This document shows positions 50,262-64,000 of a DNA stretch of 64,000 nt, piece by piece. The stretch is from Escherichia phage PGN6866, in sequence record MT127620; one strand, written 5' to 3'. The notes beneath the pieces are model-generated. The model did not search any database. It was not told the DNA's origin and worked only from the letters and a program-made list of their open reading frames with translations. The position numbers and the translations under genes are program-made. Within the stretch, counting starts at the first letter, position 1; every line of letters begins with the position of its first letter.

Positions 50262-50341
50262 TTTCTAATCCACCTGAAGGGTAAACCCTTTCATCTAATT
50301 AACCTTTAAATTGTGCCCCCTTTGTCAGAGGCACCCATTGA

Positions 50342-51445: not shown

Positions 51446-52059
51446 AACGAATCCACCAACGTAATATTATAATTGCTAAGGTTTTCAGAGATGTGATGAA
51501 AATGTTCCAGAAGTCGCATCGGTTGTTGACCGTAAGAGTCACGAGGCGCTTCCAGATCTACCTGACCTACCAGTGCACCTTTATAATGCACTTTACCATC
51601 TGTAGGATTGATGTAAATATAACGAGTAACCAATCCATCAAATTCAGGATTGAACAGACTGTAAACCATTTCACCAGAGATTGAACGACCAATCCCCGGA
51701 GCGTTTCGAATCTTGTTACCCATCAAACCCTTCGCTCTCTGACGAACAGGATTGATATGAGTCCAGCTTACAGTGTTACCGTTATGGAACAGATAACCAA
51801 CATCAGGTGATTCGAGAATCAAGGTTGGGTCGAACACTGGAATATTCATCGTAGTGTTTCGGAGATTCCCATGCTCGTTCTTGTACCACTGCTCTACAAC
51901 AAAATACAGAGCCTGTTCTGCTTCATGCGAGAAGTCATCGCTGCGGAAGTTACCGCTCTGCTCAACACCAATCACAAAACACGGAAGGTTGATATTGCCT
52001 GCTCGTTTAGCAATCCATGTACCATTATAGTAATGAGAAAAATCAGCTACTAAGCTCAC
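51442..52059 (-). CDS. Hypothetical protein in ligase cluster (205 aa)
   Basis: ORF overlapping amidoligase start by 4 nt. Confidence 0.55.
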   Translation of the reverse strand: MSLVADFSHYYNGTWIAKRAGNINLPCFVIGVEQSGNFRSDDFSHEAEQALYFVVEQWYKNEHGNLRNTTMNIPVFDPTLILESPDVGYLFHNGNTVSWTHINPVRQRAKGLMGNKIRNAPGIGRSISGEMVYSLFNPEFDGLVTRYIYINPTDGKVHYKGALVGQVDLEAPRDSYGQQPMRLLEHFHHISENLSNYNITLVDSL

Positions 52060-52068
52060 GATAACCTC

Positions 52069-52875
52069 TTATGCTACCTGAAGGAGTTTGATCTGCTGGT
52101 CAGCTTCTTTAACGTTGTTCCCGTTAATGATTTCATGAAGCTTCTCAATCGGAAGGCGAGAGTGCAATGCCATCAGAGTGGACATATCACACTGCTGAAC
52201 AACCTTGTCAACCTGATCGTAAACAAACTTACGGTTTTCACGATCACTAATCCAGAAGTTAGACAGAGAACGGTATTCAATACCATAGTCTTTATAACGG
52301 ATTGCAGATGCTTTACCGTAGAGTTCTTTACGGCGAGTATCTTTGTCCATAATTACTGCTGGGAGAGACAGGAAGTAGTCACACAGCACACCCAGCATCA
52401 TCTGAGTTTGCAGAGTGATATCCAAAGCACCAACTACGCCAAGATGTACGTGACCACCGGCAGTACGAAGTCCCTTATTCTGAGAAGTCGGGGACGGGTT
52501 TTTCTGACCAGTGAAGGCGTTGAAATCAGGAGTGCACCCGAAGATGAACGCTGATTCATTAAAGGTCTTCATCTCTTCTTCAGTGAAGATGTGAGAGCTA
52601 ACACCCGGAGCTGTTTCCATGTCCAGCTTGTTCAGGACATTATTGGTGAGATCAATACCACGTTGCATGTTATCGTTAAACGCTTCAAAACCGCTCTGTG
52701 GGTCAATATCAAACTCAGCCAGTACGTTGTCCTCTTGGAGACGAACATCCTTAGCCAGAGCGATCTTATCGTCCTTAGAGCAGCCTAATAAACCGGCTAC
52801 AGAAGTGATGATACCACTGCTAGTACGAACAAACATTTCAGGGTCAGAGCCGATAAGGAATTTGCGCTTAGTCAT
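52069..52875 (-). CDS. Hypothetical protein, possibly a second amidoligase-like enzyme
   Basis: LIGSDPEMF and TAGGHVHLGV resemble divergent E-x-E / HxH motifs; weak. Confidence 0.5.
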   Translation of the reverse strand: MTKRKFLIGSDPEMFVRTSSGIITSVAGLLGCSKDDKIALAKDVRLQEDNVLAEFDIDPQSGFEAFNDNMQRGIDLTNNVLNKLDMETAPGVSSHIFTEEEMKTFNESAFIFGCTPDFNAFTGQKNPSPTSQNKGLRTAGGHVHLGVVGALDITLQTQMMLGVLCDYFLSLPAVIMDKDTRRKELYGKASAIRYKDYGIEYRSLSNFWISDRENRKFVYDQVDKVVQQCDMSTLMALHSRLPIEKLHEIINGNNVKEADQQIKLLQVA

Positions 52876-53839
52876 TGTAATACTCCACTAGTTCAGAAAA
52901 GAGAGATGAGATTGTGTTACCAACTTCTTCAAGAGTAAGACCGGAATCTGCTCCAGTTCTTTGAATCAGTCGGGCTGTAAAGTTTTGTACTGTAATGTTT
53001 CCCAACTTGTCGTCTATTGCTTCACGTTTGTGACCATAACAGTTGGACCAGAGTCTTAACCACTCTGACATTGTTTCATACTCGTCCGGGTCTTGATCTT
53101 TAGCACGAGCAAATCTTCGTAAGGCATCTTGGTTATGGTTACGAACATAACCATTCTCGTTGTCGCCAACACCGAAGGGGTTTTGAACCCATACTTGCTT
53201 CGTGTATTCATCAGAGTCTACAACCAAAGGAAGGAATGCTGCTGCTGACATATTGTTGTTAATAACAATAGAGGTGCTCTCGCTACTACCATTGGCTCTT
53301 CCTCGTTGAGACCATCCACCGAAGAAGTCACGACCCAACCCAGCTAACACTAGAGCGATGCCGATGCGTTTACGCTTCAGCCACTCTTCCCTGTCTTCAA
53401 TTCCTTCTGCTAGGAAATCCATTCCACGATATTGCCCTTCCAGAATACTACGGAAGAGCATAAGTCCTGTGAAGATCTGATCTGCTGGATGCTCACGAAG
53501 ATTGACAGCAACACTGTTCGCTGAAGTGATAGTAAATACATCACGATAGCAAGACATAGAATTCATAATGTCTGCTGTTTCAATCAAGTTCTTTTCAATA
53601 TCAGATGGAACATGACCATGAAAAGAGTGGGTCCAGTAATTCAACATCTCCAATTGCAAGTTAATGTCACGGTTGAAGCGTTTATGGCGCCCATCTTCCA
53701 TTACACATTCGTCATTAACATCATATACGACTTGACCTTGCATGTAGTTGTGGATACCGAAGCACCCACGACCTAAGAACTTCTGTTCCCCTAAATCCTG
53801 TTGAAGATTAAGAGGTACGATCGTTGTGGAGATTGACAT
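52868..53839 (-). CDS. Hypothetical protein in ligase cluster (323 aa)
   Basis: ORF. Confidence 0.55.
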   Translation of the reverse strand: MSISTTIVPLNLQQDLGEQKFLGRGCFGIHNYMQGQVVYDVNDECVMEDGRHKRFNRDINLQLEMLNYWTHSFHGHVPSDIEKNLIETADIMNSMSCYRDVFTITSANSVAVNLREHPADQIFTGLMLFRSILEGQYRGMDFLAEGIEDREEWLKRKRIGIALVLAGLGRDFFGGWSQRGRANGSSESTSIVINNNMSAAAFLPLVVDSDEYTKQVWVQNPFGVGDNENGYVRNHNQDALRRFARAKDQDPDEYETMSEWLRLWSNCYGHKREAIDDKLGNITVQNFTARLIQRTGADSGLTLEEVGNTISSLFSELVEYYND

Positions 53840-53849
53840 AACTAACCTT

Positions 53850-55049
53850 TTATTTTCCTAAAAATAATCCGCTCATAACACCATCCCACTCAGAGGATGG
53901 AATCACTGAATACTCCGAACTTTGGTCCAGAGTTCCACTACTAAATCGCTGAATAATGTTGTAGATGTTGAACAGGTCTTTAGCCTCGGCACGAATGCCG
54001 TAGATTAACCTGTTAGCTGTTCTCTCATTTTTAGACACGCGACGGGTAAAGTTAACCAAAAGATTATCACCTTTAAGTATCTCTGACCCATCTTTTACTA
54101 GATCGGGGTGCATCACTGGCAAGAACATTGAGTTGTTAACTCGTAATTCTGCTGTTTCATCATTCTCGTAATGAATCCACTTAAAATCTTCATCACGAAA
54201 GTGACCGCATCCATCTCTGTATGACTGTTGGCGCCAAGGCACTTGAAATGCTTCAGCGTATTTATCAGCCATGCCAACCGTAAATAGTGACGCTGGGAAA
54301 ATACAAGCATCCCAATCATTACCAACCAGAGTTGCTTTCGTTTCACCCAAGAGGTTAGTGTAAGTGCTAACCATTCGTGAGTAAACGTAAGCCTGAAGAA
54401 TTGTCCAGCCTTCAACCAACCATTTGTGGAGGAAGGTTTCAACTTGACTCTCTTCATCTTCACAATAGAAGGTTCGGTCTAACATCAAATAGAACAGACA
54501 ACGATCAGCAGGGATGTTCTCAGTTGCTACCCCCATAAAACCTTTATCGTGCCAGCGTAAACAGGAGGGACGATCTTTGTCCACAAATGCTTCCATAGCT
54601 TCCAGTACAGCACGAGGTGTGGTTTGATGTTCAGGGTTTTTGTCGTTCCAACGATCAATGTTATTCTTAGGAGGTGTGTCTTCGTCTTCATACGAACACC
54701 AACTTAAAGCTTCAGCTACATGCTTTTCATCACGCCAACGTCTAAAACCTAACATCTTCATATGAGTTCCAGAGTTCCAGATATGCTTGATTTTACACAT
54801 ATCCATCTCTCGGCTTAACCGGAACTCTTCTCCATCAGCACTACGAACGTTAGCTTCTTCATGCCACACTCGAACGTGCATATTCCACCCATGAGTTGCC
54901 TCATAAGTGTTAGGTTCAAAATATTCATCATACTCTTCATCGTCTTCATCAACGCCACCATTATAGTTGCGAAGCTGAAGGAACCCATAACAAGGAGGGT
55001 TGACTGTTAAAACATTACCTTCAGTATCTTCTAATGTTACTGGAAACAT
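53850..55049 (-). CDS. Hypothetical protein in ligase cluster (399 aa)
   Basis: ORF. Confidence 0.55.
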   Translation of the reverse strand: MFPVTLEDTEGNVLTVNPPCYGFLQLRNYNGGVDEDDEEYDEYFEPNTYEATHGWNMHVRVWHEEANVRSADGEEFRLSREMDMCKIKHIWNSGTHMKMLGFRRWRDEKHVAEALSWCSYEDEDTPPKNNIDRWNDKNPEHQTTPRAVLEAMEAFVDKDRPSCLRWHDKGFMGVATENIPADRCLFYLMLDRTFYCEDEESQVETFLHKWLVEGWTILQAYVYSRMVSTYTNLLGETKATLVGNDWDACIFPASLFTVGMADKYAEAFQVPWRQQSYRDGCGHFRDEDFKWIHYENDETAELRVNNSMFLPVMHPDLVKDGSEILKGDNLLVNFTRRVSKNERTANRLIYGIRAEAKDLFNIYNIIQRFSSGTLDQSSEYSVIPSSEWDGVMSGLFLGK

Positions 55050-55060
55050 TATACCAACCT

Positions 55061-55423
55061 CTATTGGTTTTTAATCAACTCGATCGACTTACGAATATAA
55101 AGAATATCTCGGAAGTTTCGATAGTTGTTCATAAATTGGTGCTTCTGGAAAGTAGCTTCTTCCAGAGCTTTCTTTGCTTCTGCGTAGCTTTTACGGGCAA
55201 GATGTACAACCCGCTCTGGTAGCATGTTTGCACGACGGATGATATACTTGTGAGCTTTCATGTTGCTTTGCTCACGAGCAATCTTACCTTTAGCAACTTT
55301 GATACCATTTGCAATCCAAGCAAGTTCTTGCTCAAGTTCATCGTTGGACATTCCACCGAGATTTGATGCAACCTTGTTCAGAGTTTCAATATTAACGTTG
55401 CCCTTGATGGGACGTGTATTCAT
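55061..55423 (-). CDS. Hypothetical helical protein (120 aa)
   Basis: ORF. Confidence 0.5.
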   Translation of the reverse strand: MNTRPIKGNVNIETLNKVASNLGGMSNDELEQELAWIANGIKVAKGKIAREQSNMKAHKYIIRRANMLPERVVHLARKSYAEAKKALEEATFQKHQFMNNYRNFRDILYIRKSIELIKNQ

Positions 55424-55425
55424 AC

Positions 55426-55578
55426 TTACTCCTGTTGTTTACACTCGTCAATAACCCACTGATAAGTGGATTGCCCAGAAAAGAAACACTGAATAAATCC
55501 AGATGTTCTCTGCGTTACCAGTGCTAGTGCACAAATCACTACCGCTGCTGCTAGCAGTTTTAAATCTAATTTAGACAT
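55426..55578 (-). CDS. Small protein with N-terminal signal/TM segment (50 aa)
   Basis: Hand-translated; RBS gagga. Confidence 0.35.
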   Translation of the reverse strand: MSKLDLKLLAAAVVICALALVTQRTSGFIQCFFSGQSTYQWVIDECKQQE

Positions 55579-55596
55579 ATTTCCTCTCTTTGAATT

Positions 55597-55622
55597 TAAA
55601 AAAGGACTCTCCGAAAAGAGTC
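55597..55622 (-). terminator. Terminator-like hairpin (gacucu-uuucgg-agaguc + U-run on minus strand)
   Basis: 6-bp stem followed by cuuuuuu. Confidence 0.45.
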
Positions 55623-55685
55623 AAGCTTTAAATACAAAAAGATATTACCCAATATCTGTGGATAACCTGCTCTTAAAATATCTAT

Positions 55686-55799
55686 CCGACGGATGTTCGA
55701 GGAATGTTCCTCTCCCTAGCATCGGCCCCATACGGGAAATATATTAAGATTAGGTTAGTTGAGTCAGAATAACTCACATAGCCCTCCGAAGAAGGCTAT
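55686..55799 (-). repeat. Conserved composite intergenic element, copy A
   Basis: Shares GGATGTTCGAG...CTCTCCCTAGC and CTCACATAGCCCT-hairpin blocks, same spacing, with copy at 61574-61678. Confidence 0.6.
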
Positions 55800-55813
55800 A
55801 GGCGTTACTACAA

Positions 55814-56029
55814 CTAAAAATCACTTGATTTTACAAAATCATCACTAAGGATTTCGTCAATTTCTTTGTTAGTCAAGTCTTTCCTGAACCAACAACAAGG
55901 TACATCCACCCATTGACCAGAGTTGTTTTCTACAGAGCATCTATTGCCTGTCTTACTCTTGCACTTATAGGTTTTACCTTTGTCTAGACGGTAGTGTATT
56001 CTGTAAACGATCGACACAAGTGTTATCAT
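55814..56029 (-). CDS. Small Cys-containing hypothetical protein
   Basis: ORF. Confidence 0.5.
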   Translation of the reverse strand: MITLVSIVYRIHYRLDKGKTYKCKSKTGNRCSVENNSGQWVDVPCCWFRKDLTNKEIDEILSDDFVKSSDF

Positions 56030-56496
56030 TACTCTACCTTAACAGAAGGACAATACTTCTCTTTCTTGCTGCGGTACATAACAACAATCCAGTTTGAATC
56101 ACGACGCTCTTTCTTACGTCGTTTCTTTTCAGCACGAGTTTCATATGTGCTAGTTCGGTGGTCACGGTATATTCCACGAAGTTCATAAAATGCCCAACCA
56201 CCACCAAACACTACACCAGCCAAAGCAGCCAAAGATAAGGCACCAAGAGCAGGGGCAGTGAACCATGTCCACCAACTGAATGACAAAATATTTTCATGTC
56301 CGAGGAAAGTCCCGCCAATCATGGATAATGCTGCATACACGGTAAATAAAAGTACAGATAGTAAAACAAAATGCAGAACTGTTCTCCAGAAGTATTCACA
56401 AAAGTTGGTCATATTGTCCCAATGAGAGTTTGGTAAACTTGACATGGTTTTGTTGAATCTGTGCAACCAGCCGTTCTTGTTAATCTTGATCATCAT
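56029..56496 (-). CDS. Membrane protein (3-4 TM helices, basic C-terminal tail)
   Basis: Hydrophobic segments plus KKRRKKERR tail. Confidence 0.55.
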   Translation of the reverse strand: MMIKINKNGWLHRFNKTMSSLPNSHWDNMTNFCEYFWRTVLHFVLLSVLLFTVYAALSMIGGTFLGHENILSFSWWTWFTAPALGALSLAALAGVVFGGGWAFYELRGIYRDHRTSTYETRAEKKRRKKERRDSNWIVVMYRSKKEKYCPSVKVE

Positions 56497-56726
56497 TCGC
56501 CTTTCTTAGCACGATCTTTGGCAGTTTTGCCAGTGCGGATGCGATGAGAAACGTTAACCAGAGTGCCACCATCAACTACAGTAACGCTCTTATTTTTAGC
56601 CAGATCAAACACAGTCTTCTCTGTGCCGCCCAAGCGAATTTGCTTAGGTTCGCTGAAGGTTTGGGTTGATTTAGATTGGAACTGAAACGGTTGACGGATC
56701 GCATCAATTGCACTTACTTTAGACAT
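56493..56726 (-). CDS. Small hypothetical protein
   Basis: ORF; 5' UTR has gcgtag(a)ggg-aatt-ccctacgc hairpin. Confidence 0.5.
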   Translation of the reverse strand: MSKVSAIDAIRQPFQFQSKSTQTFSEPKQIRLGGTEKTVFDLAKNKSVTVVDGGTLVNVSHRIRTGKTAKDRAKKGE

Positions 56727-56957
56727 AGTGGAAATTCCTTAAAAAGTTATGGCTGCGTAGAGGGAATTCCCTACGCAAATTGGGCCGCCTAAAAAGAGGC
56801 GTCATAGTACTAAAAGGAGGAGAGAAGAGAGCCTATTTAGCTACTTTTTTCTGTCCGTTTACGAACCAGATAATTGAACCGTCAGGCTGTCGTTGACCGA
56901 AGCCTTTCTGGTTAATCATATCGTCATAAGAATATGCTTTACGTCTCATTTGTTTTC

Positions 56958-57212
56958 CTACGAAGTTAAGATGATTTCAGCCTTAATAAACTTCTCACCA
57001 ACAACCATATCACCAGAGATGACACGTAGTTCTCCAGTGCCTAGGTTAACAGCTCCAGCAGGTTGACAACCCCTGCTTTTAGCTGTCATCATATAAACCT
57101 TTTGATTTTGGCACTCTTGGAGAGTGAACACATCTGACATATTTAGATCTCTGACGCGGAGGATTTTTTCCTCTTTGTCTTTAACTTTAATGTTAATAAT
57201 GCTCATATGCAC
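56958..57212 (-). CDS. Small protein, member of 8-copy paralogous family
   Basis: Shared pattern L..L..G.VF ... VNL.TG ... V. Confidence 0.5.
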   Translation of the reverse strand: MHMSIINIKVKDKEEKILRVRDLNMSDVFTLQECQNQKVYMMTAKSRGCQPAGAVNLGTGELRVISGDMVVGEKFIKAEIILTS

Positions 57213-57457
57213 TACTCCTGAACCACTGACATACGAATCATTTCTACCTGATCATCAAGACCTTTAACAGATAACACACCTGTGGAAAGGTTTACCACAG
57301 GAACCCAACCACTGGCTATACGGATGTTACCAGAAGCATTTTCAACCCTCATGTAATACTGAGGAGAGGCACTTCCGTTCTGAACCACGAAAGGGTTTCC
57401 GGGAATGATTGTTTCCAATCGTACCGTATTATCCTTTTTCTTTGGGATGATTTTCAT
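57212..57457 (-). CDS. Small protein, paralogous family member
   Basis: Same family pattern. Confidence 0.5.
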   Translation of the reverse strand: MKIIPKKKDNTVRLETIIPGNPFVVQNGSASPQYYMRVENASGNIRIASGWVPVVNLSTGVLSVKGLDDQVEMIRMSVVQE

Positions 57458-57705
57458 TGCGTATTATCCACCAAAAGTTCTGCTGATACAGGAACAACCT
57501 GACAACGACCAAGAGGGGCTGAAACAACCCCATCACCTAGCCGGAGAGTAGGTATCCGGTTATCTGGGATTTTGATGTTAGGACTTAAGGTAACAATCCC
57601 TTTCACATAAAGATCTTCATTGTGTGGGAATTTAAACACAGAACCATTAGCTAGAGAGCTTAGCTCTACTGCTTCTACTTCCTCTTTCTTATATGTGATT
57701 TTCAT
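57454..57705 (-). CDS. Small protein, paralogous family member
   Basis: Same family pattern. Confidence 0.5.
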   Translation of the reverse strand: MKITYKKEEVEAVELSSLANGSVFKFPHNEDLYVKGIVTLSPNIKIPDNRIPTLRLGDGVVSAPLGRCQVVPVSAELLVDNTQ

Positions 57706-57713
57706 ATTGATTC

Positions 57714-58025
57714 CTATTTAAGTTTGAGGCTAATGTTAAGGTGCATACATGCCCTGTTCTGTACAGCAGCATAACTTCTACCGAGCATGTCAGCCATTCT
57801 CTGAATAGACATGAACCCAGCATTACGGATAAGGAACTGATCTTCTTCTTCAGACCACTTAACTCGGATTGAGGCTCTTGATATTCCGAATTTAGTACAA
57901 GCTGTGTTAACTGCATTCTCCGTTACATTCATAATCTGAGCAACTTCTTGAACCGAGTACTCTTTGATTAGTCTCCGAAGATTTTCAATCTGCATCGGAG
58001 TCCATATAGTTCTTCGTGCTTTCAT
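57714..58025 (-). CDS. Putative transcription regulator with two HTH-like segments
   Basis: YSVQEVAQIMNVTENAV and MSIQRMADMLGRSYAAV resemble sigma region-4 / HTH motifs. Confidence 0.5.
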   Translation of the reverse strand: MKARRTIWTPMQIENLRRLIKEYSVQEVAQIMNVTENAVNTACTKFGISRASIRVKWSEEEDQFLIRNAGFMSIQRMADMLGRSYAAVQNRACMHLNISLKLK

Positions 58026-58053
58026 ACATCCTCCAATTAGCTATTATTCAATT

Positions 58054-58199
58054 TGGTTACAGGTGTAGGATTCGAACCTACGCTCGGACTCCCTAGCCAT
58101 CACCAAAGGAATGCATCCAATGGGCATACGGTCATTCGACCACGGGCGACTGCTTTACCGTAGACTCTGCATTACTGAGTCCCATAAGCTATACCTGTA
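58054..58199 (-). ncRNA. tRNA-like element (147 nt): canonical T-arm, 7-bp acceptor-like closing stem, encoded CCA, ~70 nt extra internal sequence
   Basis: 5' tacaggt pairs with 3' acctgta; T-arm gtagg-ttcgaat-cctac; ends a-cca; no canonical D or anticodon arm found. Confidence 0.3.
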
Positions 58200-58559
58200 A
58201 TTAAAAGGTTGTTCCACATTTACCCTAAAGTTATTGGGGAGTACACTAGCTCTGGGCCACGCTGTAGATATCGGCCTACCTTCCACAGCTAATCAGCTAA
58301 TGTACTCTCCTAATAGTTTATGAATAGGGGGAGGGGACGAATCCTCCCTTATCCTATTAATTAATATTGCATGTAAGACCTAACAATCGGTTGCCTTTGT
58401 AGGAATAAGCGTTATGCTAATCCAGCACTAAACTCCCGCCCCCTTAGTGGGCTGGGTTATTAAAGGGTAACGCCCTTATGGGCTAGTTACATGAATGTTA
58501 GTTTGATAGGAGATCTGAAGTCCTATCTCAAAGGACTCTCGTAAGAATCCTTCACGATA

Positions 58560-58691
58560 TTACTTATTCATCTCTCGTCGGCTATCTCTCCAAGCCAACC
58601 AAGTGTAGGTTTTCAGTTCTTCAAAGTCTTCTGGAGAGAATAGATACTCTTTGAAGGTGTTTCCAAACCACTCTAAAAATTCTTTAGTCAT
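58560..58691 (-). CDS. Small hypothetical protein (43 aa)
   Basis: Hand-translated; TAATG coupling to upstream gene. Confidence 0.3.
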   Translation of the reverse strand: MTKEFLEWFGNTFKEYLFSPEDFEELKTYTWLAWRDSRREMNK

Positions 58692-58933
58692 TAGTCCTCA
58701 TACTTTTTGTTAGGAAGGATGAAATCCCACAGGGCAGCCCACAAGACAAGGGATATAAAAACCACAGCAACGATAGGCCATAGAAAAACTATAATTGCTA
58801 TCTTTGATAGGTTTGGTTCGTTGTTCCACCCTCTGAACTCCACACTACCTTTTACGTCAAGGAATTTTATCAGAGCTGAAACCATTACCATACCTGTCAA
58901 GTAAGTAATCAAGATACTAACAGGACTGATCAC
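58691..58933 (-). CDS. Small membrane protein (2-3 TM helices)
   Basis: Hydrophobic profile. Confidence 0.5.
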   Translation of the reverse strand: MISPVSILITYLTGMVMVSALIKFLDVKGSVEFRGWNNEPNLSKIAIIVFLWPIVAVVFISLVLWAALWDFILPNKKYED

Positions 58934-59090
58934 AAGGTTGATCTCCGCATGTTTTACAGATCACTGGTGAGTAACTACAGGCAGGGTATACTGACACCCC
59001 ATCAAATGTCTCACACCCACAGTCAGGGCATGTACCATTGGATTCCATGTCGTCGTCATCACACACTTCACCGCCACCAAAACAACTCAT
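58917..59090 (-). CDS. Small Cys-rich Zn-ribbon-like protein (57 aa)
   Basis: Hand-translated; CPDCGC...CKTCG motifs. Confidence 0.35.
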   Translation of the reverse strand: MSCFGGGEVCDDDDMESNGTCPDCGCETFDGVSVYPACSYSPVICKTCGDQPCDQSC

Positions 59091-59099
59091 ACAGACTCC

Positions 59100-59321
59100 C
59101 TAATAAACTAAACCTACAGCCTTTGCATCAGGTTGAGGGACTACCTTTGCGCTAGGGCGATAACCATCCACTGAACCGTTCCAAAGATTGACACAGGTGA
59201 TATATCCATCGTTTATGATGTCTGTTTTAATCCAGAAGTGTTTATCATGACCAAAAATACTTCCGTTTGGCAGCGTGGACAGCTCAACGGTTTTAAGGGA
59301 CTGCTTAGAGTCTAGTTTCAT
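59100..59321 (-). CDS. Small protein, paralogous family member
   Basis: VELSTLPNGSIF ... CVNLWNGSV pattern. Confidence 0.5.
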   Translation of the reverse strand: MKLDSKQSLKTVELSTLPNGSIFGHDKHFWIKTDIINDGYITCVNLWNGSVDGYRPSAKVVPQPDAKAVGLVY

Positions 59322-59328
59322 AATAACC

Positions 59329-59577
59329 TCAATTATCGTAGCATGTATTCCAATACATGTAGTTAACGTACGTTCTCGGTTTGATTCCGTACATGATGAA
59401 GTGAGTCTTCTTAATCCTTTCCTTCAGCTTGTAATAAAGGCCATCACTGAAGTTACCAATCTTTACTTGGAAGCGTAAGGAGCGAGCATCCATTCGAAGC
59501 ATAGAGATTAGCTGTACCCTACTACCTCCAGCCATCTCTTCAAGAAGCTTCTTTGTATTCCAATAATGAGCTGTCAT
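59329..59577 (-). CDS. Small hypothetical protein
   Basis: ORF. Confidence 0.5.
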   Translation of the reverse strand: MTAHYWNTKKLLEEMAGGSRVQLISMLRMDARSLRFQVKIGNFSDGLYYKLKERIKKTHFIMYGIKPRTYVNYMYWNTCYDN

Positions 59578-59578
59578 A

Positions 59579-59860
59579 TTACCACTCCTTACCGGTTGTT
59601 GTTACAGAACCACCACACCACTGCGCATCGGATAAGGTTTTAGTCTCCTCATCTACTGCTGCACCATTCAGGCATGAGATACCACTGTAACGCATATCAA
59701 TTTCACCAGAAGGAACCTTCTCGCCCTTATGCCAGCGAGAAACACAAACACCTTCCACTGCTACTGCACACCATCCATCAGGACGGCTCTGTACGCAGCC
59801 TGTAAGGGCTATGCAGACAAGGAAGATACAGATTAAGGATATTACACCACCCCAACTCAT
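59579..59860 (-). CDS. Small lipoprotein (candidate superinfection-exclusion or envelope-targeted protein)
   Basis: Signal peptide with lipobox ALTGC; RBS aggagg. Confidence 0.55.
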   Translation of the reverse strand: MSWGGVISLICIFLVCIALTGCVQSRPDGWCAVAVEGVCVSRWHKGEKVPSGEIDMRYSGISCLNGAAVDEETKTLSDAQWCGGSVTTTGKEW

Positions 59861-60000
59861 AACTACCTCCTATTTGATTTGGTGGACTATCTGGAATCGA
59901 ACCAGAAGCTCACTAAGAAAGTAATTCCCACTGTTATAAAAGCACTTGCCTCAACAGGGATACACTAACTCTGGTGCCGCACCCATACTAGCCCTAAATG

Positions 60001-60076
60001 TGGTGCGCCCTACAGGACTCGAACCTGTAACCAATAGCTTAGAAGGCTACTGCTCTATCCATTGAGCTAAGAGCGC
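60001..60076 (-). tRNA. tRNA-Arg (anticodon UCU), CCA encoded
   Basis: Manual fold: acceptor GCGCTCT/AGGGCGC, D-arm GCTC/GAGC, anticodon stem GTAGC/GCTAT with loop CTTCTAA, T-arm ACAGG-TTCGAGT-CCTGT. Confidence 0.85.
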
Positions 60077-60084
60077 AGAATTAT

Positions 60085-60249
60085 TTAGATCATATCTCGC
60101 TTGGTGATATGACCACATGTTTTACATCGAAGTATATAACGAGTACCTGTGTCTTCTATTTGACCGATCTCATTGTATATGTGTAAACGAATTTCTTTTA
60201 TTGTCTCCCAATCATGGAGATGGAAGAAACGTTTAAACCACTTGAACAT
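60085..60249 (-). CDS. Small hypothetical protein (start trimmed)
   Basis: ORF; C-terminal CKTCGH motif. Confidence 0.4.
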   Translation of the reverse strand: MFKWFKRFFHLHDWETIKEIRLHIYNEIGQIEDTGTRYILRCKTCGHITKRDMI

Positions 60250-60256
60250 ATTAACC

Positions 60257-60508
60257 TCAAGCACAAGCAGGGAGTGTGATGATCTTATACTTACCATCAA
60301 ACTCTCCAAATAAACCTAAGAATGTAGGACTGTAAGTACCAGTACAAACAAACTCATCAAACAGTGCGTTATAACTAGGCTTGATCTTCCAAGCCCATAC
60401 ATAGCCCATCTTATCGATTGCAATGTAACGAGTGTTCAGAGGAACAGTCATCATCACACTGTCAACTTCGATCACTTTAGTGATTGGTGCAGCTTGAAAG
60501 TTTTTCAT
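60257..60508 (-). CDS. Small hypothetical protein
   Basis: ORF. Confidence 0.5.
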   Translation of the reverse strand: MKNFQAAPITKVIEVDSVMMTVPLNTRYIAIDKMGYVWAWKIKPSYNALFDEFVCTGTYSPTFLGLFGEFDGKYKIITLPACA

Positions 60509-60738
60509 TATATAACCACCAATTTTAACGTTGCTTTATATTCTGTGACTGGAGCATCACCTGCAAATGAGAGCATGTGAGCGGGACAAGGTAGTCGCAC
60601 AGCTCGACCACCTGCAATCTTCATATAGAAACTCTTTTTATCATCAAGAAGATTGTCATCCAGTGTGAAGATGGACCCGACGGTCAGATCTCTGTATATC
60701 TTTTTAGTCGGTTTCGAAGAGTCTAGAATTATGTTCAT
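60508..60738 (-). CDS. Small protein, paralogous family member
   Basis: RDLTVGSIF ... pattern. Confidence 0.5.
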   Translation of the reverse strand: MNIILDSSKPTKKIYRDLTVGSIFTLDDNLLDDKKSFYMKIAGGRAVRLPCPAHMLSFAGDAPVTEYKATLKLVVI

Positions 60739-60911
60739 ACTTTACCTTTGATAAAAATGTCATTACCACAGACACAGCATGAACGAACAACAGTAGCGCC
60801 ACGCTGAACGATACGAACCTCTTCCTTAACCAGATTAACACGAGCACCACAGCAAGGAGAGTTGACATAAGAGTAACCAGCTTGCGTATGTTTGATTGTT
60901 TGCTTAGACAT
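60735..60911 (-). CDS. Small Zn-ribbon protein (58 aa)
   Basis: Hand-translated; SPCCG...CCVCG; RBS aagaggaag; ATGA coupling downstream. Confidence 0.45.
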   Translation of the reverse strand: MSKQTIKHTQAGYSYVNSPCCGARVNLVKEEVRIVQRGATVVRSCCVCGNDIFIKGKV

Positions 60912-60950
60912 TTTAGCTTCCTCTTGTTAGTTTAAGTAAGAGTTGTCCCT

Positions 60951-60985
60951 TAATTAAAACAACAAAGGCTGCCCGAAGGCAGCCT
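60951..60985 (-). terminator. Rho-independent terminator (aggcugcc-uucg-ggcagccu + U-rich tail on minus strand)
   Basis: Perfect 8-bp stem with UUCG loop. Confidence 0.6.
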
Positions 60986-60989
60986 CTCT

Positions 60990-61241
60990 TTATTGACTCA
61001 CACCACGAATCAGATGATTCTGTAGCGTCCCGTCTTCTGCATTATACAGGAATGCGAACATCAACTCCTTAGCCACATCTCTTGAGCAATTAAGACACTT
61101 GGAGATTTGCGTTAGTTGCATGTTACGTTCAGTGTGTTCCATCAAGGCAATGCGAATGATTTCTCGCATACCTATTACATGAATTGTTTTAACCGGCATA
61201 GGTCCAATTGCCTTGCTTGTTACGGATGGCTGACATTGCAT
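60990..61241 (-). CDS. Small hypothetical protein (start may be internal Met at 61199)
   Basis: ORF. Confidence 0.5.
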   Translation of the reverse strand: MQCQPSVTSKAIGPMPVKTIHVIGMREIIRIALMEHTERNMQLTQISKCLNCSRDVAKELMFAFLYNAEDGTLQNHLIRGVSQ

Positions 61242-61329
61242 GAATCCAGAAGCCTTCCAGTTTCAGAGCACCATTAGCTACTGCATCCATACGTTCAGGG
61301 CGGTTCATACGTTTGGTTGATATTTTCAT
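61189..61329 (-). CDS. Small hypothetical protein (46 aa)
   Basis: Hand-translated; weak RBS. Confidence 0.3.
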   Translation of the reverse strand: MKISTKRMNRPERMDAVANGALKLEGFWIHAMSAIRNKQGNWTYAG

Positions 61330-61573
61330 ACCTATCTCTCTTTGTTAGTGGAGGCATTATTGCCAGTTGATATAAGGGATAGCCCTAGTCAGTAGACTAA
61401 TCCTGACCGCGTACTCATTGCCGACCCTCTCTGCCTAAGAGTTCAGGTTCTAGAGCTATCTCTTATTCCAACTGGTGAAGACTCCCTACCCCTAGGAAGT
61501 CTCCTGAATCCCAAACCAATATGTACCCCTACATATCAGAAAGTCTTTCGAAAATTAACAGGTTTTAGTCTAA

Positions 61574-61678
61574 CACCGGATGTTCGAGCAAGCTCTCCCT
61601 AGCGGTGTGGCATATGCCTGAATTAATAAGTTAATGAGGAACACCCTCACATAGCCCTCTGATAAACACAAGGGCTAT
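61574..61678 (-). repeat. Conserved composite intergenic element, copy B
   Basis: See copy A at 55686-55799. Confidence 0.6.
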
Positions 61679-61687
61679 AAGTCGGTG

Positions 61688-61906
61688 TTACTTTTGAGTC
61701 AAATACAAATCAGGGCGAGGCATAACAGTGGTTGATGGATTGAAATTACCAACATAACCAGTGCTTAGATTGGCAGCCCTACGTAGTCCATTAGAGAGAT
61801 CGTCATCTAGCATCAGCCAGAATTTTTGATCATAAGAGAAAACATCTCCCCCTTTAAGGTCTTCCACATTTGCATATTTAGGAGTCTCAACTACTTTAAT
61901 TTCCAT
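61688..61906 (-). CDS. Small protein, paralogous family member
   Basis: VEDLKGGDVF ... ANLSTG pattern. Confidence 0.5.
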   Translation of the reverse strand: MEIKVVETPKYANVEDLKGGDVFSYDQKFWLMLDDDLSNGLRRAANLSTGYVGNFNPSTTVMPRPDLYLTQK

Positions 61907-62164
61907 CTACTTACCCTTGTTGGTAATAATAACATCATGAAGAAGAACAATCTTGCTTTTCGAGCTAAGCTTAAGGACTTGCTTATTTGTCAGACTAAGG
62001 ACGACACAACCACCATCAGAAGGTTTAGTCTCCTCGACCTGTGATTTGAACAACTGAACAACCATGTAGAAATCTGCCCGTGTTTCCCTGATTTGGAATA
62101 CATCTCCAATTTTGAGATCACCAACACATAGAGATGGTTCATTTACCTTCAAATCAATCTTCAT
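61907..62164 (-). CDS. Small protein, paralogous family member
   Basis: VGDLKIGDVF pattern. Confidence 0.5.
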   Translation of the reverse strand: MKIDLKVNEPSLCVGDLKIGDVFQIRETRADFYMVVQLFKSQVEETKPSDGGCVVLSLTNKQVLKLSSKSKIVLLHDVIITNKGK

Positions 62165-62414
62165 CTTTAGCCTCTATGTTGGTTATGTGGAGATCACTGC
62201 GTACTTGGCAAACTTCGTCCCGTTTAAAAGGCATGAGCTTTCCAGTTACCACATCAACACAGTTGACATAATTGTCTGCGTACAATGTGTCGGTTCTAAT
62301 GTAAAGAGAATCTTTACGCTCAAATAGAACGCCCGGCTTCATGTTATTTAAGCGAAGCATTGTACGATCGGATTTAATATTAACTTTCACTGTTAATCTC
62401 CTGCTGCTTAGCAA
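62154..62414 (-). CDS. Small protein, paralogous family member
   Basis: LRLNNMKPGVLF ... VDVVTG pattern. Confidence 0.5.
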   Translation of the reverse strand: MLSSRRLTVKVNIKSDRTMLRLNNMKPGVLFERKDSLYIRTDTLYADNYVNCVDVVTGKLMPFKRDEVCQVRSDLHITNIEAKDED

Positions 62415-62676
62415 TAGCTACTCGCAAGTCTTCATTAGCACGAGCAAGGCGCAACACTTCATGATTAAGGTTCTGAAGACGTTTGTTTCTGTCTTCAACT
62501 TGCATAATAAGATCGTTGAGTGTTACTTTAACTTTCTCATTATACATCTCATCCACTCGGACTAGTGATTTATACATTCTTTCCCAGCTTGCTGCTTTGT
62601 TTCTGAGAACAATAAATCCTATAACGCTGATAGTTAAACAGCTTACAAAAAGGAATTTATATACTTCTAAAGTCAT
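62380..62676 (-). CDS. Membrane-anchored coiled-coil protein
   Basis: N-terminal TM helix then heptad-like charged region. Confidence 0.5.
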   Translation of the reverse strand: MTLEVYKFLFVSCLTISVIGFIVLRNKAASWERMYKSLVRVDEMYNEKVKVTLNDLIMQVEDRNKRLQNLNHEVLRLARANEDLRVAIAKQQEINSES

Positions 62677-62876
62677 ATCATTTTACCCTTTATCAGAGAT
62701 TAAAAGTAATATTATTTAAGTAAGTTATATTTAGTAAACTTATTTTCTAAGAAATTTTCAAAGGGTCTATATACAGAGCATTACCCATAGTCCCAGAATA
62801 CTACCATCTTTTTCGATAAATTTACTAAGTGGTTGGTTTATAAAGGAATTTAGTTTGTCAAATCTGGCACTAGTGA

Positions 62877-63317
62877 TTATTCCCTAGAGCTATTATCGAA
62901 CACTAAATCACCACAATACATAGGATTGGCATACCATTTTGGCACCCCTTCGCTCTTACTCTGAAAGTAAGTCCCACTGTACAGAGGAACATAATTCTTC
63001 TTAAGGGCACGTTTAGCTAGCCGCTCGCTTTCTCCAATGGCTTGCTTAGTCATCGGATTTTTATCACGAATCAGCTTTACATAACGTTTATAAGGTTTCT
63101 CCTGTTTTAATAGTACCGGAATCCACTCAAACTGGTTCTTTTGTCTTATCACCTGTTCAGCGGTCAGTTTTCGTTGGGCCATTCTATTTATCACGGTATC
63201 CGCAACTAAAGCCTTACATGCGGTTGGCTGGTTCCCTGCCTCATAATAAATAGTCAATGTCAACATTAGCTGTGCCGTTGTTATCAGAACTTGATACCTC
63301 CTATTTTGTTGTTTCAA
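62877..63317 (-). CDS. Cell wall hydrolase, SleB-like (Hydrolase_2 family)
   Basis: LTIYYEAGNQ...VADTVINRMA...QKNQF pattern. Confidence 0.6.
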   Translation of the reverse strand: MKQQNRRYQVLITTAQLMLTLTIYYEAGNQPTACKALVADTVINRMAQRKLTAEQVIRQKNQFEWIPVLLKQEKPYKRYVKLIRDKNPMTKQAIGESERLAKRALKKNYVPLYSGTYFQSKSEGVPKWYANPMYCGDLVFDNSSRE

Positions 63318-63376
63318 TAAACACCCTCGAAAAGATGCTTATAGAAACACCCCTCCCTTTCGGGAGAGGCACTATC

Positions 63377-64000
63377 TTACCACTCGTAACTTACACCAGC
63401 GCCCAGAACAGCGTCACTCTCTGAAGTCATTGCCACTGATGCTTTAGTTACTACGTTTTCATTGAAACGAGCACTAACACCAACAGCAAGAGCAGATTCA
63501 CCATCGTAAGCACCTACCCCAGCACCAACAGAGAAAGCAGATCCTTGACTTACTTGCGGGATGTTAGCCATTGCAGCCACGCCAGAAATACCAGCAGAGG
63601 CATGATCACGGTTACGGTCTACTTGTTTTTGCAAAGAAGCAAAACGTTTGTTGGTGGATTGTTCCAGAGCTTTGATGGATTTGGCGTTAGCATTAACGGC
63701 AGACATATCTGCATCTTTACCATTTTTGCCATTTAATCCGTCAACGCCATTCAAGCCTGCTGCACCAGTTAGGCCAGTTTCGCCTTTCTTACCATCTGCA
63801 CCAGAATCACCTTTTTCACCTTGAGCGCCATCTTTACCATCAATGCCATCTTTACCATCAATGCCATCTTTACCATCAATGCCATCTTTACCATCAATGC
63901 CATCTTTACCATCAATGCCATCTTTACCATCAATGCCATCTTTACCATCAATGCCATCTTTACCATCAATGCCATCTTTACCATCAATGCCATCTTTACC
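63377..64000 (-). CDS. Collagen-like (Gly-X-Y) repeat protein with YadA-type C-terminal anchor domain; N-terminus beyond window
   Basis: Frame is open upstream of the track TTG start and reads continuous G-X-Y triplets; C-terminus AGISGVAAMANIPQ...SVGAGVGAY...AVGVSARFNEN...GAGVSYEW. Confidence 0.6.
   Translation of the reverse strand, partial: GKDGIDGKDGIDGKDGIDGKDGIDGKDGIDGKDGIDGKDGIDGKDGIDGKDGIDGKDGAQGEKGDSGADGKKGETGLTGAAGLNGVDGLNGKNGKDADMSAVNANAKSIKALEQSTNKRFASLQKQVDRNRDHASAGISGVAAMANIPQVSQGSAFSVGAGVGAYDGESALAVGVSARFNENVVTKASVAMTSESDAVLGAGVSYEW
63826..64000. repeat. Perfect 18-bp tandem repeat (atcaatgccatctttacc, ~10 copies, continues past window end)
   Basis: Identical units; encode (GKDGID)n on the minus strand. 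Confidence 0.9.

What the first reader, a model, noticed from the sequence alone, without database searches (positions are those of the whole stretch)
63377..64000. Collagen-like repeat protein with a YadA-type anchor domain, encoded by perfect 18-bp tandem repeats
The minus-strand frame is open through the track's TTG start and encodes continuous Gly-X-Y triplets. At least 10 identical 18-bp units specify (GKDGID)n and run beyond the window. The C-terminus (AGISGVAAMANIPQ ... GVSYEW) closely matches the membrane-anchor domain of trimeric autotransporter adhesins. A trimeric collagen-stalk protein with a YadA-type anchor is unexpected in a phage early region, and the perfect repeats imply very recent expansion or length variability by slippage. 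The track ORF 63769-63993 (MALMVK...) is an out-of-frame artefact of the same repeat.
Basis: partly seen in the sequence, partly recalled or inferred. Interest (0 to 1): 0.65.

Follow-up and report, generated by a model that had tools for sequence, protein, structure and literature searches.

The report
Phage-encoded collagen-stalk mini autotransporter adhesin
The window ends inside an already-annotated accessory early gene of phiEco32-like coliphages; it encodes a small outer-membrane-anchored trimeric fibre whose collagen-like stalk length varies between isolates through a perfect 18-bp repeat, and its role in infection has not been tested.

Summary
On the minus strand, 63377-64000 is one open frame running off the window. 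It has 9.67 perfect copies of an 18-bp unit (not 10 or more), 32 uninterrupted Gly-X-Y triplets, a helical neck and a full-length YadA-type anchor (Pfam E=2e-19). The predicted fold matches the Hia, AtaA and YadA anchors.

The window is a phiEco32-like (Kuravirus) phage. The gene is the homologue of phiEco32 gp119, annotated "agglutinating adhesin" in GenBank record EU330206. A 2013 paper already lists it as a yadA homologue. Full-length relatives add a Sec signal peptide and a tiny two-cysteine cap, so the product is a miniature trimeric autotransporter and not a tail protein.

What I did not find reported:
- The repeat ranges from 0 to at least 9.67 units among 13 loci, including loci with identical flanks.
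- There are two N-terminal alleles.
- The gene is a clean 845-bp cassette that SU10 lacks. It sits in the early leftward operon between terminator hairpins.

YadA-anchor genes occur in 112 phage records, including N4-like, T4-like and jumbo phages. The same collagen-stalk design recurs in N4-like Salmonella phages.

Function is untested. My guess is that it remodels the infected cell surface, either blocking adsorption or promoting aggregation.

Verdict: real, correctly read, already known, moderately interesting.

The parts
63377..64000 (-). 3' part (207 codons plus stop) of the adhesin gene, the homologue of phiEco32 phi32_119. The 5' end with the signal peptide and cap lies beyond the window.
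   Evidence: Translation. 99% identical over the last 112 aa to phiEco32 ABY52920.1 and 100% to phage Ec3-ASingh. Full-length relatives.
63827..64000 (-). Perfect 18-bp tandem repeat (GGTAAAGATGGCATTGAT, encoding GKDGID), 9.67 copies, cut by the window edge. It is a variable-number repeat that sets stalk length.
   Evidence: TRF: 100% matches, score 348. Exact count. Copy number runs from 0 to at least 9.67 across 13 loci.
63713..64000 (-). Collagen-like region: 32 uninterrupted Gly-X-Y triplets (96 aa), no proline, 62% charged residues at the X and Y positions. Predicted triple-helical rod of at least 27 nm.
   Evidence: Pfam Collagen E=1.1e-17. Composition and length estimate at 0.286 nm per residue.
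63560..63712 (-). Helical neck (DADMSAVNANAKSIKALEQSTNKRFASLQKQVDRNRDHASAGISGVAAMANIPQ). Inferred to be the trimeric coiled coil that runs into the barrel lumen.
   Evidence: AlphaFold model: one continuous helix at model residues 18-73, which are residues 90-145 of the 207-aa fragment. It aligns with the helix of YadA 2LME and Hia.
63380..63559 (-). YadA-type membrane anchor: four beta-strands per chain, forming a 12-strand barrel as a trimer.
   Evidence: Pfam PF03895 E=2.1e-19, profile positions 1-60 of 60. PDB 2LME E=2.6e-8. Four strands in the model with pLDDT 85-92. Foldseek top five are Hia, AtaA and YadA anchors.
63342..63370 (-). Intrinsic-terminator-like hairpin (CCUCUCCC-GAAA-GGGAGGGG followed by UGUUUCU), 6 nt after the stop codon. 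It is the 3' end of the cassette.
   Evidence: Consensus scan. dG -18.7 kcal/mol, z -3.5, and 0 of 200 shuffles fold as well. Conserved in all 12 relatives; KM01 has the loop flipped to TTTC with the stem intact.
63769..63993 (-). Spurious ORF (MALMVK...) in the +1 frame of the repeat. Not a gene.
   Evidence: Frame analysis. Its length follows the repeat number, and KM01 has no repeat units. The same ORF is annotated as hypothetical protein UAG58493.1 in FS2B.

Best explanation
This is the 3' two-thirds of an accessory early gene of a phiEco32-like (Kuravirus) virulent coliphage. It encodes a miniature trimeric (type Vc) autotransporter.

SHOWN: The visible part is a collagen-like Gly-X-Y tract, a helical neck and a complete YadA-type anchor. 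Full-length relatives begin with a Sec-type signal peptide (MKAIVLSSILALSVMASPVFA|K) and a roughly 26-residue cap with two closely spaced cysteines. The collagen tract contains a perfect 18-bp repeat whose copy number differs between isolates (0 to at least 9.67 units). The gene is a discrete RBS-ORF-terminator cassette. It is missing from SU10. It lies about 3.5 kb downstream of the strong sigma-70 early promoters, in the leftward early operon.

INFERRED from what is established for this family: Early in infection the protein is exported by Sec. Three chains are inserted by BAM as a 12-strand barrel. The passenger is threaded out C-terminus first, so the coiled-coil neck nucleates C-to-N zippering of the collagen triple helix. 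The result is a thin rod of about 10 to over 30 nm on the surface of the infected cell. Replication slippage or unequal recombination in the repeat changes rod length by 1.7 nm per unit without breaking the frame.

BIOLOGICAL ROLE (a guess, untested): The protein remodels the infected cell's surface for the phage's benefit. My leading guess, at about 0.3, is that it hinders further phage adsorption. That would mean superinfection exclusion, or protection of progeny from sticking to lysed debris. The next guess, at about 0.25, is adhesion or auto-aggregation.
For: Domains and fold:
- Pfam YadA_anchor E=2e-19 over the full profile, and Collagen E=1e-17.
- PDB sequence hits to the YadA (2LME) and Hia anchors.
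- AlphaFold model with pLDDT 80: one long helix plus four strands. The five best Foldseek PDB hits are the Hia, AtaA and YadA anchors.

N-terminus in relatives:
- Nine of the 12 related loci (all those not broken by a record end or an N gap) carry a signal peptide plus a two-Cys cap, in two alleles. ShigP1 also shows an allele B start upstream of its N gap.

Repeat behaviour:
- Copy number varies while the units stay DNA-identical.
- phiEc_1, MN03 and EK5 have identical 441-nt flanks but 4.5, at least 6.5 and 1.5 units.

Cassette nature:
- SU10 has the neighbouring genes but only a 241-nt spacer at this site.
- The junctions map to an 845-bp insert placed directly after a terminator hairpin that SU10 shares.
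- The cassette has its own terminator, dG -18.7.

Timing:
- SU10 CDS 69-125 are classed as early, with three consensus sigma-70 promoters between CDS120 and CDS121. The leftward right-end cluster is the experimentally early class in phiEco32.

Not structural:
- The gene lies outside the late module. The N4-like homologues also lie away from tail genes (PMC3728262).

Breadth:
- 112 phage records and 63 viral contigs carry YadA-anchor genes.
- The same signal peptide, Cys cap, collagen and anchor design occurs in N4-like Salmonella phages and in one uncultured viral contig, L023.

Analogy for the repeat:
- In Legionella Lcl, the number of collagen repeats scales with homotypic binding and aggregation (PMC6460258).
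Against: - The 5' end is not in the window, so the signal peptide and cap are known only from relatives.
- No SignalP-type predictor was available. The signal peptide call rests on inspection and a hydrophobicity script.
- Trimerisation, triple-helix formation by a proline-free sequence, outer-membrane localisation and expression are all untested.
- No sigma-70-like promoter was found directly upstream. Two terminator-like hairpins precede the gene in relatives, so expression may be low.
- Copy numbers from short-read assemblies are uncertain. Two GenBank records end inside this repeat and one has an N gap there.
- No paper in the searchable library tests any function. The phiEco32 virion-proteome paper (Savalia 2008) was not available.
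- PHROGs files the family under 'tail'.
Confidence: 0.78

Rival explanations
1. Same molecule and same display on the infected cell, but its purpose is adhesion or auto-aggregation. The collagen rod makes infected cells stick to neighbouring cells, mucus or surfaces, so the burst is released next to fresh hosts. Repeat number tunes avidity.
For: - The GenBank label is 'agglutinating adhesin'.
- TAAs commonly mediate auto-aggregation (family knowledge).
- In Legionella Lcl, more collagen repeats give stronger cell-cell binding and sedimentation (PMC6460258).
- In H. parasuis VtaA2, the collagen domains contribute to collagen binding (PMC6755704).
- The cap is too small to be an obvious ligand-binding head, so the stalk itself may be the functional part.
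Against: - Homotypic binding would clump infected cells with each other, not with uninfected hosts.
- The window for action is only the latent period.
- The 'agglutinating' label was transferred by homology to YadA and was never tested.
- The protein scores far below the NCBIfam cut-offs for YadA, Lcl and Scl.
Confidence: 0.25
2. It is a virion component: a collagen-like tail fibre or whisker, as the 'tail protein' annotations suggest.
For: - The best PHROG hit is phrog_26246, 'tail protein', E=5e-85. Many weaker hits are to collagen-like tail fibre families.
- Bas90 and RefSeq phiEco32 annotate the gene as tail protein.
- Collagen-like repeats are common in phage fibres.
Against: - The PHROG tail-fibre hits cover only the Gly-X-Y part.
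- The gene lies in the early leftward cluster, not the late structural module.
- A cleavable signal peptide and a membrane beta-barrel anchor make no sense in a cytoplasmically assembled virion.
- SU10 and most of the roughly 100 Kuravirus records lack the gene yet are viable.
- The N4-like homologues are not near tail genes.
Confidence: 0.04
3. It is a horizontally acquired passenger with no role in lytic growth. It is poorly expressed behind terminators, and the repeat variation is neutral slippage or partly an assembly artefact.
For: - It is present in only about 14 of roughly 100 related records.
- No promoter of its own was found, and two hairpins lie upstream.
- Assemblies break in the repeat.
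Against: - All loci stay in frame. All nine unbroken loci keep the signal peptide, cap, neck and anchor intact, and ShigP1 shows an allele B start upstream of its N gap.
- The 3' part is 98-100% identical among carriers, while the backbone is about 96% identical.
- The same architecture is kept in unrelated virulent phage groups.
- Alleles with 0 to 5.5 units (99 nt or less) are short enough to be assembled reliably, so the polymorphism is real.
Confidence: 0.12

Closest known systems
phiEco32 gp119 (phi32_119, ABY52920.1, 'agglutinating adhesin') and its orthologues in Bas90, phiEc_1, EK5, KM01, MN03, FS2B, Ec3-ASingh, EcP-vB, EcK-vB, EcM-vB1 and ShigP1
   Same: The same gene at the same locus, upstream of the Hydrolase_2 gene and followed by the same terminator. 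The last 112 aa are 98-100% identical.
   Different: - The window has the longest array seen, at least 9.67 units against 0 to 7.5 in the others.
- The window's N-terminal allele (A or B) is unknown.
- Several records annotate the gene wrongly: truncated 125-aa products, upstream-extended starts, or 'tail protein'.
'Agglutinating adhesin' of N4-like Salmonella phages FSL SP-058 and SP-076, TR2 and relatives
   Same: - The same design: signal peptide, Cys-loop cap, collagen-like tract, short neck and YadA anchor.
- 66-68% identity over the neck and anchor.
- Located in a non-structural region and followed at once by a terminator hairpin.
   Different: - The cap is larger, about 55 aa.
- The collagen tract has 33-46 triplets encoded by degenerate DNA, with no perfect 18-bp array.
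- The phage backbone is unrelated (PMC3728262).
Bacterial trimeric autotransporter adhesins (YadA, Hia, AtaA)
   Same: The membrane anchor fold and the preceding helix. The secretion logic is inferred to be the same.
   Different: - The phage protein is about 200-260 aa in the sequenced relatives, against 400 to over 3000 aa.
- It has no YadA head, neck or stalk repeats.
- It scores 42 bits against the 750-bit cut-off of NCBIfam YadA_autotrans, so it is not a YadA orthologue.
- It is encoded by a virulent phage.
Haemophilus parasuis VtaA trimeric autotransporters
   Same: They are TAAs whose passenger contains collagen triple-helix repeats that vary in number between paralogues (PMC6755704).
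   Different: They exceed 1000 aa, have adhesin head motifs, are chromosomal and are virulence-associated. Their collagen repeats are central, not the whole stalk.
Prophage-encoded Eib immunoglobulin-binding proteins (P-EibA, P-EibC)
   Same: They are phage-borne TAAs of E. coli. The anchor is detectably homologous, at about 35% identity.
   Different: They come from temperate phages and are expressed from the lysogen. They have a coiled-coil stalk with Ig-binding regions and no collagen tract.
Variable-length collagen-like surface proteins (Legionella Lcl, Streptococcus Scl1/Scl2) and 'Periscope Proteins'
   Same: Surface fibres whose length is set by a variable number of near-identical tandem repeats. 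In Lcl, function scales with repeat number (PMC6460258 and PMC9704523).
   Different: - The anchors differ (none or LPXTG).
- They are bacterial, not phage-encoded.
- The Periscope definition explicitly excludes multimeric TAAs.
- NCBIfam scores are far below the Lcl and Scl cut-offs.

Membership tests
Trimeric autotransporter adhesin (type Vc secretion) | C-terminal YadA-like anchor contributing four beta-strands per chain | tested here: met
   PF03895 E=2.1e-19, profile positions 1-60 of 60. 2LME E=2.6e-8. Four strands in the AlphaFold model. Foldseek top five are TAA anchors.
Trimeric autotransporter adhesin (type Vc secretion) | N-terminal Sec signal peptide | tested here: inconclusive
   It is not visible in the window because the gene runs off the edge. 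All nine unbroken related loci, and ShigP1 upstream of its N gap, start MKAIVLSSILALSVMASPVFA|K or MKAFALSAILVLSAISAPSFA|H. A hydrophobicity script supports this. No dedicated predictor was available.
Trimeric autotransporter adhesin (type Vc secretion) | Helical (coiled-coil) segment leading from the passenger into the barrel | tested here: met
   The model has a continuous helix at residues 18-73 directly before the strands, with pLDDT 79-92. It superposes on Hia and AtaA. This is a monomer model, so the coiled coil itself is inferred.
Trimeric autotransporter adhesin (type Vc secretion) | Obligate homotrimer in the outer membrane with a surface-exposed passenger | not testable with these tools
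   Needs fractionation, heat-modifiability on SDS-PAGE and protease shaving.
YadA proper, BimA or Vomp (named TAA orthologue groups, NCBIfam) | Whole-protein score above the curated cut-off | tested here: not met
   YadA_autotrans 42 bits against 750. BimA 48 against 600-800. Vomp 19 against 500. Only the anchor region aligns.
Collagen-like triple-helix protein | Long uninterrupted Gly-X-Y repeat | tested here: met
   32 consecutive triplets in the window. PF01391 E=1.1e-17, above the cut-off.
Collagen-like triple-helix protein | Actual triple-helix formation (CD signature, trypsin resistance) | not testable with these tools
   The sequence has no proline and is 62% charged at X and Y. An adjacent trimerisation module is present, but folding is inferred.
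Phage tail or virion structural protein (PHROG 26246 label) | Encoded in the late structural module, or found in the virion | tested here: not met
   The gene lies in the early leftward cluster. It carries a signal peptide and a membrane anchor. The HMM hit to phrog_26246 is strong, but the 'tail' label has no independent support. Virion proteomics for phiEco32 could not be read.
Moron (independent accessory transcription unit in a phage genome) | Variable presence between otherwise collinear genomes | tested here: met
   A clean 845-bp indel relative to SU10. About 14 of roughly 100 related records carry the gene.
Moron (independent accessory transcription unit in a phage genome) | Own promoter and own terminator | tested here: inconclusive
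   An own terminator is present. No sigma-70-like promoter was found in the 160-nt upstream spacer of relatives. The gene is probably read from the early operon through two hairpins.
Periscope Proteins | Monomeric single chain with independently folding, highly identical tandem repeat domains of variable number | tested here: not met
   The repeats are DNA-identical and vary in number. However, the unit is a 6-residue collagen motif in a presumed trimer, and the definition excludes TAAs (PMC9704523). The protein may work like one without being a member.

The most novel reading that the evidence does not exclude
A strictly virulent phage carries a contingency-type, in-frame repeat that tunes the length of a collagen rod it plants on its victim's outer membrane within minutes of infection. 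Rod length, about 10 to over 30 nm, would be matched to the host's O-antigen or capsule thickness or to the reach of competing phages' tails. That would make it a length-adjustable exclusion or adhesion device. Headless mini-autotransporters would then be a widespread, unrecognised class of infected-cell surface effectors in N4-like, T4-like, jumbo and Kuravirus phages.
Probability: 0.2. Interest if true: 0.65.

Novelty: already known. Interest (0 to 1): 0.35.

Why it matters
The gene itself is not new. It is labelled an adhesin in the phiEco32 GenBank record, and PHROGs has a family for it.

What remains open is why strictly virulent phages of several unrelated lineages carry small outer-membrane autotransporters in non-structural regions. 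Published comments only speculate that they are virulence genes (PMC3728262, PMC10654107).

This locus offers a tractable case. It has a natural allelic series of 0 to about 10 collagen units, two cap alleles, and natural carriers and non-carriers (phiEco32 versus SU10) in a model phage whose transcription programme is known.

There are practical consequences too:
- The repeat breaks short-read assemblies. Two GenBank genomes end in it and one has an N gap.
- It generates false ORFs and truncated or mislabelled annotations such as 'tail protein'.
- Phage-therapy screens may flag the gene as a virulence factor.

Tried and rejected
- Promoter search. The consensus sigma-70 scan found nothing upstream of the gene in Ec3-ASingh. 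By eye, ACTGTATA in allele A resembles the phage-sigma motif AATGTATA, but it is mismatched at a core base, would remove the RBS, and is absent from allele B. I rejected it.
- Recent capture from E. coli. blastn of the unique 454 nt against 5,426 complete E. coli genomes found no match.
- Foreign composition. GC is 0.43-0.47 against 0.38-0.42 nearby, which is not distinctive.
- Primary phiEco32 papers. Savalia 2008 and Pavlova 2012 are not held, so the virion proteome and the measured temporal class of gene 119 could not be read directly. The class was taken from PMC8948821 and the SU10 paper.
- Literature on function. Six searches found no experimental study of a YadA-like protein from a virulent phage.
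- Functional link to the adjacent Hydrolase_2 gene, or a lysis role. I rejected this. SU10 keeps the hydrolase without the adhesin, holin and lysozyme are in the late region, and the adhesin is early.
- Upstream neighbour. The phi32_120 homologue has no Pfam match.
Full report
**What is in the sequence**

Read on the minus strand, 64000 down to 63377 is a single open frame of 207 codons ending in TAA. It starts at the window edge with nine complete, base-perfect copies of GGTAAAGATGGCATTGAT plus 12 more bases. Tandem Repeats Finder reports 63827-64000, period 18, 9.7 copies, 100% matches.

The peptide is (GKDGID)9-GKDG. It continues as non-repetitive Gly-X-Y triplets, giving 32 uninterrupted triplets in all. 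There is no proline, and 62% of the X and Y positions are charged.

Next comes a roughly 50-residue segment (DADMSAVNANAKS...AMANIPQ), then 60 residues that match Pfam YadA_anchor end to end: E=2.1e-19, 69.8 bits against a cut-off of 22.7. Pfam Collagen scores E=1.1e-17.

Five of the six frames are open across the repeat. What identifies the coding frame is therefore its continuity with the anchor and its conservation in relatives, not its openness.

**Fold**

phmmer against PDB sequences finds the YadA anchor 2LME (E=2.6e-8, query residues 118-207) and the Hia anchors.

An AlphaFold model of the last 135 residues, built on an alignment of 19 homologues, has mean pLDDT 80. It shows one long helix (residues 18-73) followed by four strands.

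Its five best Foldseek matches in the PDB are Hia 3EMO, 2GR7 and 2GR8, AtaA 9VNJ and YadA 2LME. Nothing else scores below E=0.1. The anchor assignment is secure.

The protein is not an orthologue of any named adhesin. NCBIfam YadA_autotrans scores 42 bits against a cut-off of 750. BimA, Vomp, Scl and Lcl are similarly far below their cut-offs.

**Where the window comes from, and the full gene**

The window is a phiEco32-like podovirus (Kuravirus, Gordonclarkvirinae). It is about 96-97% identical over 20 kb to phiEco32, KM01, SU10 and Bas90.

The gene is the homologue of phi32_119, annotated 'agglutinating adhesin' in GenBank record EU330206. It is 'tail protein' in RefSeq phiEco32 and in Bas90, and 'YadA-like protein' in EcP-vB and EcM-vB1.

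Full-length relatives show what lies beyond the window:
- A Sec-type signal peptide, MKAIVLSSILALSVMASPVFA|K.
- A roughly 26-residue cap, KSGNNGNGNGGCGVGQSTNGCGIGDWF, with two cysteines eight residues apart.
- Then the collagen tract.

A second allele occurs in EcP-vB, EcK-vB, EcM-vB1 and ShigP1. It has a different signal peptide and cap, MKAFALSAILVLSAISAPSFA|HSDKCSHSKQCEVQQ, again with two close cysteines, and extra Pro-containing triplets.

From general knowledge of autotransporters, closely spaced cysteine pairs are the kind of small disulphide loop that remains compatible with autotransporter secretion. The mature protein is thus a tiny cap on a collagen rod, joined by a short helical neck to a barrel anchor. 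This is a miniature type Vc autotransporter.

**The repeat is a fast-evolving length polymorphism**

Across 13 loci, the number of 18-bp units is as follows:

| Locus | Units |
|---|---|
| KM01 | 0 |
| EK5 | 1.5 |
| phiEco32 | 2 |
| ShigP1 | at least 4 |
| phiEc_1 | 4.5 |
| EcP-vB, EcK-vB, EcM-vB1 | 5 |
| Ec3-ASingh | 5.5 |
| FS2B | at least 6 |
| MN03 | at least 6.5 |
| Bas90 | 7.5 |
| window | at least 9.67 |

The units are almost always identical at the DNA level, including at synonymous sites.

phiEc_1, MN03 and EK5 have 100% identical sequence over the 441 nt of gene downstream of the repeat, yet they differ in copy number. Copy number therefore changes faster than point substitution, as expected for slippage or unequal recombination. 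All alleles stay in frame.

At 0.286 nm rise per residue (textbook collagen geometry), the predicted collagen rod would be:
- about 11 nm in KM01;
- about 19 nm in phiEco32;
- about 30 nm in Bas90;
- at least 27.5 nm for the visible part in the window.

One caveat applies. FS2B and MN03 end inside this repeat and ShigP1 has a 100-N gap in it. Long arrays from short-read assemblies are therefore uncertain. Alleles of 5.5 units or fewer (99 nt or less) should be reliable.

**The out-of-frame ORF**

ORF 63769-63993 is the +1 frame of the repeat. KM01, which has no repeat units, offers no repeat for it to be read from. FS2B's record annotates this ORF as a hypothetical protein (MVKMALMVK...).

The 125-aa TTG 'ORF' in the window, and the 125-aa 'adhesin' products in MN03 and ShigP1, are truncations of the same gene caused by the sequence break.

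**Genomic context**

SU10 has both flanking genes but only a 241-nt spacer between them.

Alignment places the junctions precisely. In Ec3-ASingh the cassette is 845 bp and comprises the RBS, the ORF and a terminator. It sits directly after a terminator-like hairpin (GCCCCGGC-UACG-GCUGGGGU followed by U7, dG -16.5) that SU10 also has. A second hairpin (dG -15) lies 70 nt further upstream.

Allele B has a different hairpin in the same position. The cassette's own terminator lies 6 nt after the stop codon (dG -18.7, z -3.5) and is conserved in all relatives.

No sigma-70-type promoter was found in the upstream spacer.

Published work gives the temporal context:
- The leftward right-end cluster is the experimentally early class in phiEco32 (PMC8948821).
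- The SU10 paper classes CDS 69-125 as early. It lists three consensus sigma-70 promoters between CDS120 and CDS121, about 3.5 kb upstream of this site (PMC4281155 and its Table S2).

The gene is therefore an accessory early gene, probably read from the early operon through two attenuating hairpins. Only about 14 of roughly 100 related records carry it.

GC content is not distinctive. There is no DNA match in 5,426 E. coli genomes.

**Wider family**

tblastn with the neck and anchor finds 112 phage records:
- N4-like phages (Erwinia S6; Salmonella TR2, SP-058 and SP-076);
- jumbo phages (GAP32, fHe-Yen9, 7t3);
- T4-like phages (SKML-39, phiR1-RT);
- Aeromonas D3 and D6;
- the Eib prophages.

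A further 63 loci came from uncultured viral contigs.

The same signal peptide, Cys-loop cap, collagen and anchor design occurs in the N4-like Salmonella phages and in contig L023. Those have 33-46 triplets, encoded by degenerate rather than perfect repeats. In SP-058 the gene is again followed at once by a terminator.

Other viral contigs in the set encode caps-free proteins of 145-156 aa with just a signal peptide, a coiled coil and an anchor.

Collagen repeats inside TAAs also have a bacterial precedent in the H. parasuis VtaA proteins (PMC6755704).

**What it most likely does**

The molecular mechanism follows from family knowledge and is inferred, not shown here:
1. Sec export.
2. BAM-assisted assembly of a 12-strand trimeric barrel.
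3. C-to-N emergence of the passenger.
4. The coiled-coil neck brings three chains into register, so that the collagen helix can zip up towards the cap.

The biological role is untested. Published comments only call such genes putative virulence genes or AMGs (PMC3728262 and PMC10654107).

These genes occur in virulent phages of plant, fish, enteric and, by report, marine bacteria. A phage-centred role therefore seems more likely than a mammalian virulence role.

Early expression, and precedents recalled from general knowledge (early superinfection-exclusion genes in T-even phages, and the T5 lipoprotein that blocks its receptor), make interference with adsorption my leading guess at about 0.3. 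The Lcl precedent, where more collagen repeats give more homotypic binding and aggregation (PMC6460258), supports adhesion or aggregation at about 0.25.

A virion role is unlikely, at about 0.04. The gene is early, the protein has a signal peptide and a barrel anchor, and the gene is dispensable. The PHROG 'tail' label is not supported by this context; I suspect it was transferred through the shared collagen-like repeats.

**Verdict**

The finding is real and was read correctly. It describes a gene that is already annotated in the type phage of the genus and belongs to a known, if unexplained, class.

I did not find three things reported:
- the 0 to at least 9.67-unit repeat series;
- the two cap alleles;
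- the exact cassette boundaries.

Interest is moderate to low (0.35). It would rise if the length-tuning idea proved functional.

Noticed in passing
window 62877-63317 (-): The downstream gene is a SleB/CwlJ-type cell-wall hydrolase (Pfam Hydrolase_2 E=2.4e-7; phrog_12974, unknown function). It lies in the early region, far from the late holin and lysozyme genes. Its start is unclear. A strong AGGAGG (63297-63302) lies about 30 nt upstream of the ATG used in GenBank (63266) and downstream of the TTG at 63317. phiEco32, Bas90 and EK5 also annotate a separate 132-nt ORF overlapping this stretch.
   Followed up: partly
L006 (FS2B MW929182), L008 (MN03 MT129653), L011 (ShigP1 PQ818763) 3407-3506: Two GenBank genomes end inside the 18-bp repeat, one of them labelled 'complete'. 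A third has a 100-N gap in it. The repeat breaks short-read assemblies, so deposited copy numbers and genome ends at this locus are unreliable. The window also ends inside the repeat.
   Followed up: yes
L006 2-181 (FS2B UAG58493.1); L008 210-587; L011 2878-3255: Annotation artefacts have propagated in public records. The out-of-frame MVKMALMVK ORF is deposited as a protein. The adhesin is truncated to 125 aa in MN03 and ShigP1. phiEco32 and Bas90 annotate the gene from upstream TTG/CTG-type starts that add about 40 non-homologous residues before the real MKAIV start.
   Followed up: yes
L005, L010, L012 and L011 (EcP-vB, EcK-vB, EcM-vB1, ShigP1), 5' end of the gene: There is a second N-terminal allele with a different 5' UTR hairpin, signal peptide and two-Cys cap (HSDKCSHSKQCEVQQ) plus Pro-containing triplets. 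It is joined to the same repeat and anchor. Homology to the SU10 spacer stops about 55 nt earlier than in allele A, which suggests replacement by recombination.
   Followed up: partly
L007 (KM01) just after the stop codon; window 63349-63370: In KM01 the terminator keeps its 8-bp stem, but the loop reads TTTC instead of GAAA. This looks like an inversion of the loop or an independent variant.
   Followed up: no
L063-L071 (IMG/VR contigs, mostly human-associated samples): A group of viral contigs encodes proteins of only 145-156 aa with a signal peptide, a short coiled coil and a YadA anchor, and no head or collagen at all. If these are functional, the anchor or a very short stalk may itself be the active part in phage mini-autotransporters.
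   Followed up: no
window 63380-63820 compared with the 44000-64000 backbone: The non-repetitive part of the adhesin gene is 98-100% identical among carriers, while the surrounding 20 kb is about 96-97% identical. This is consistent with recent spread of the cassette by recombination or with strong purifying selection.
   Followed up: partly
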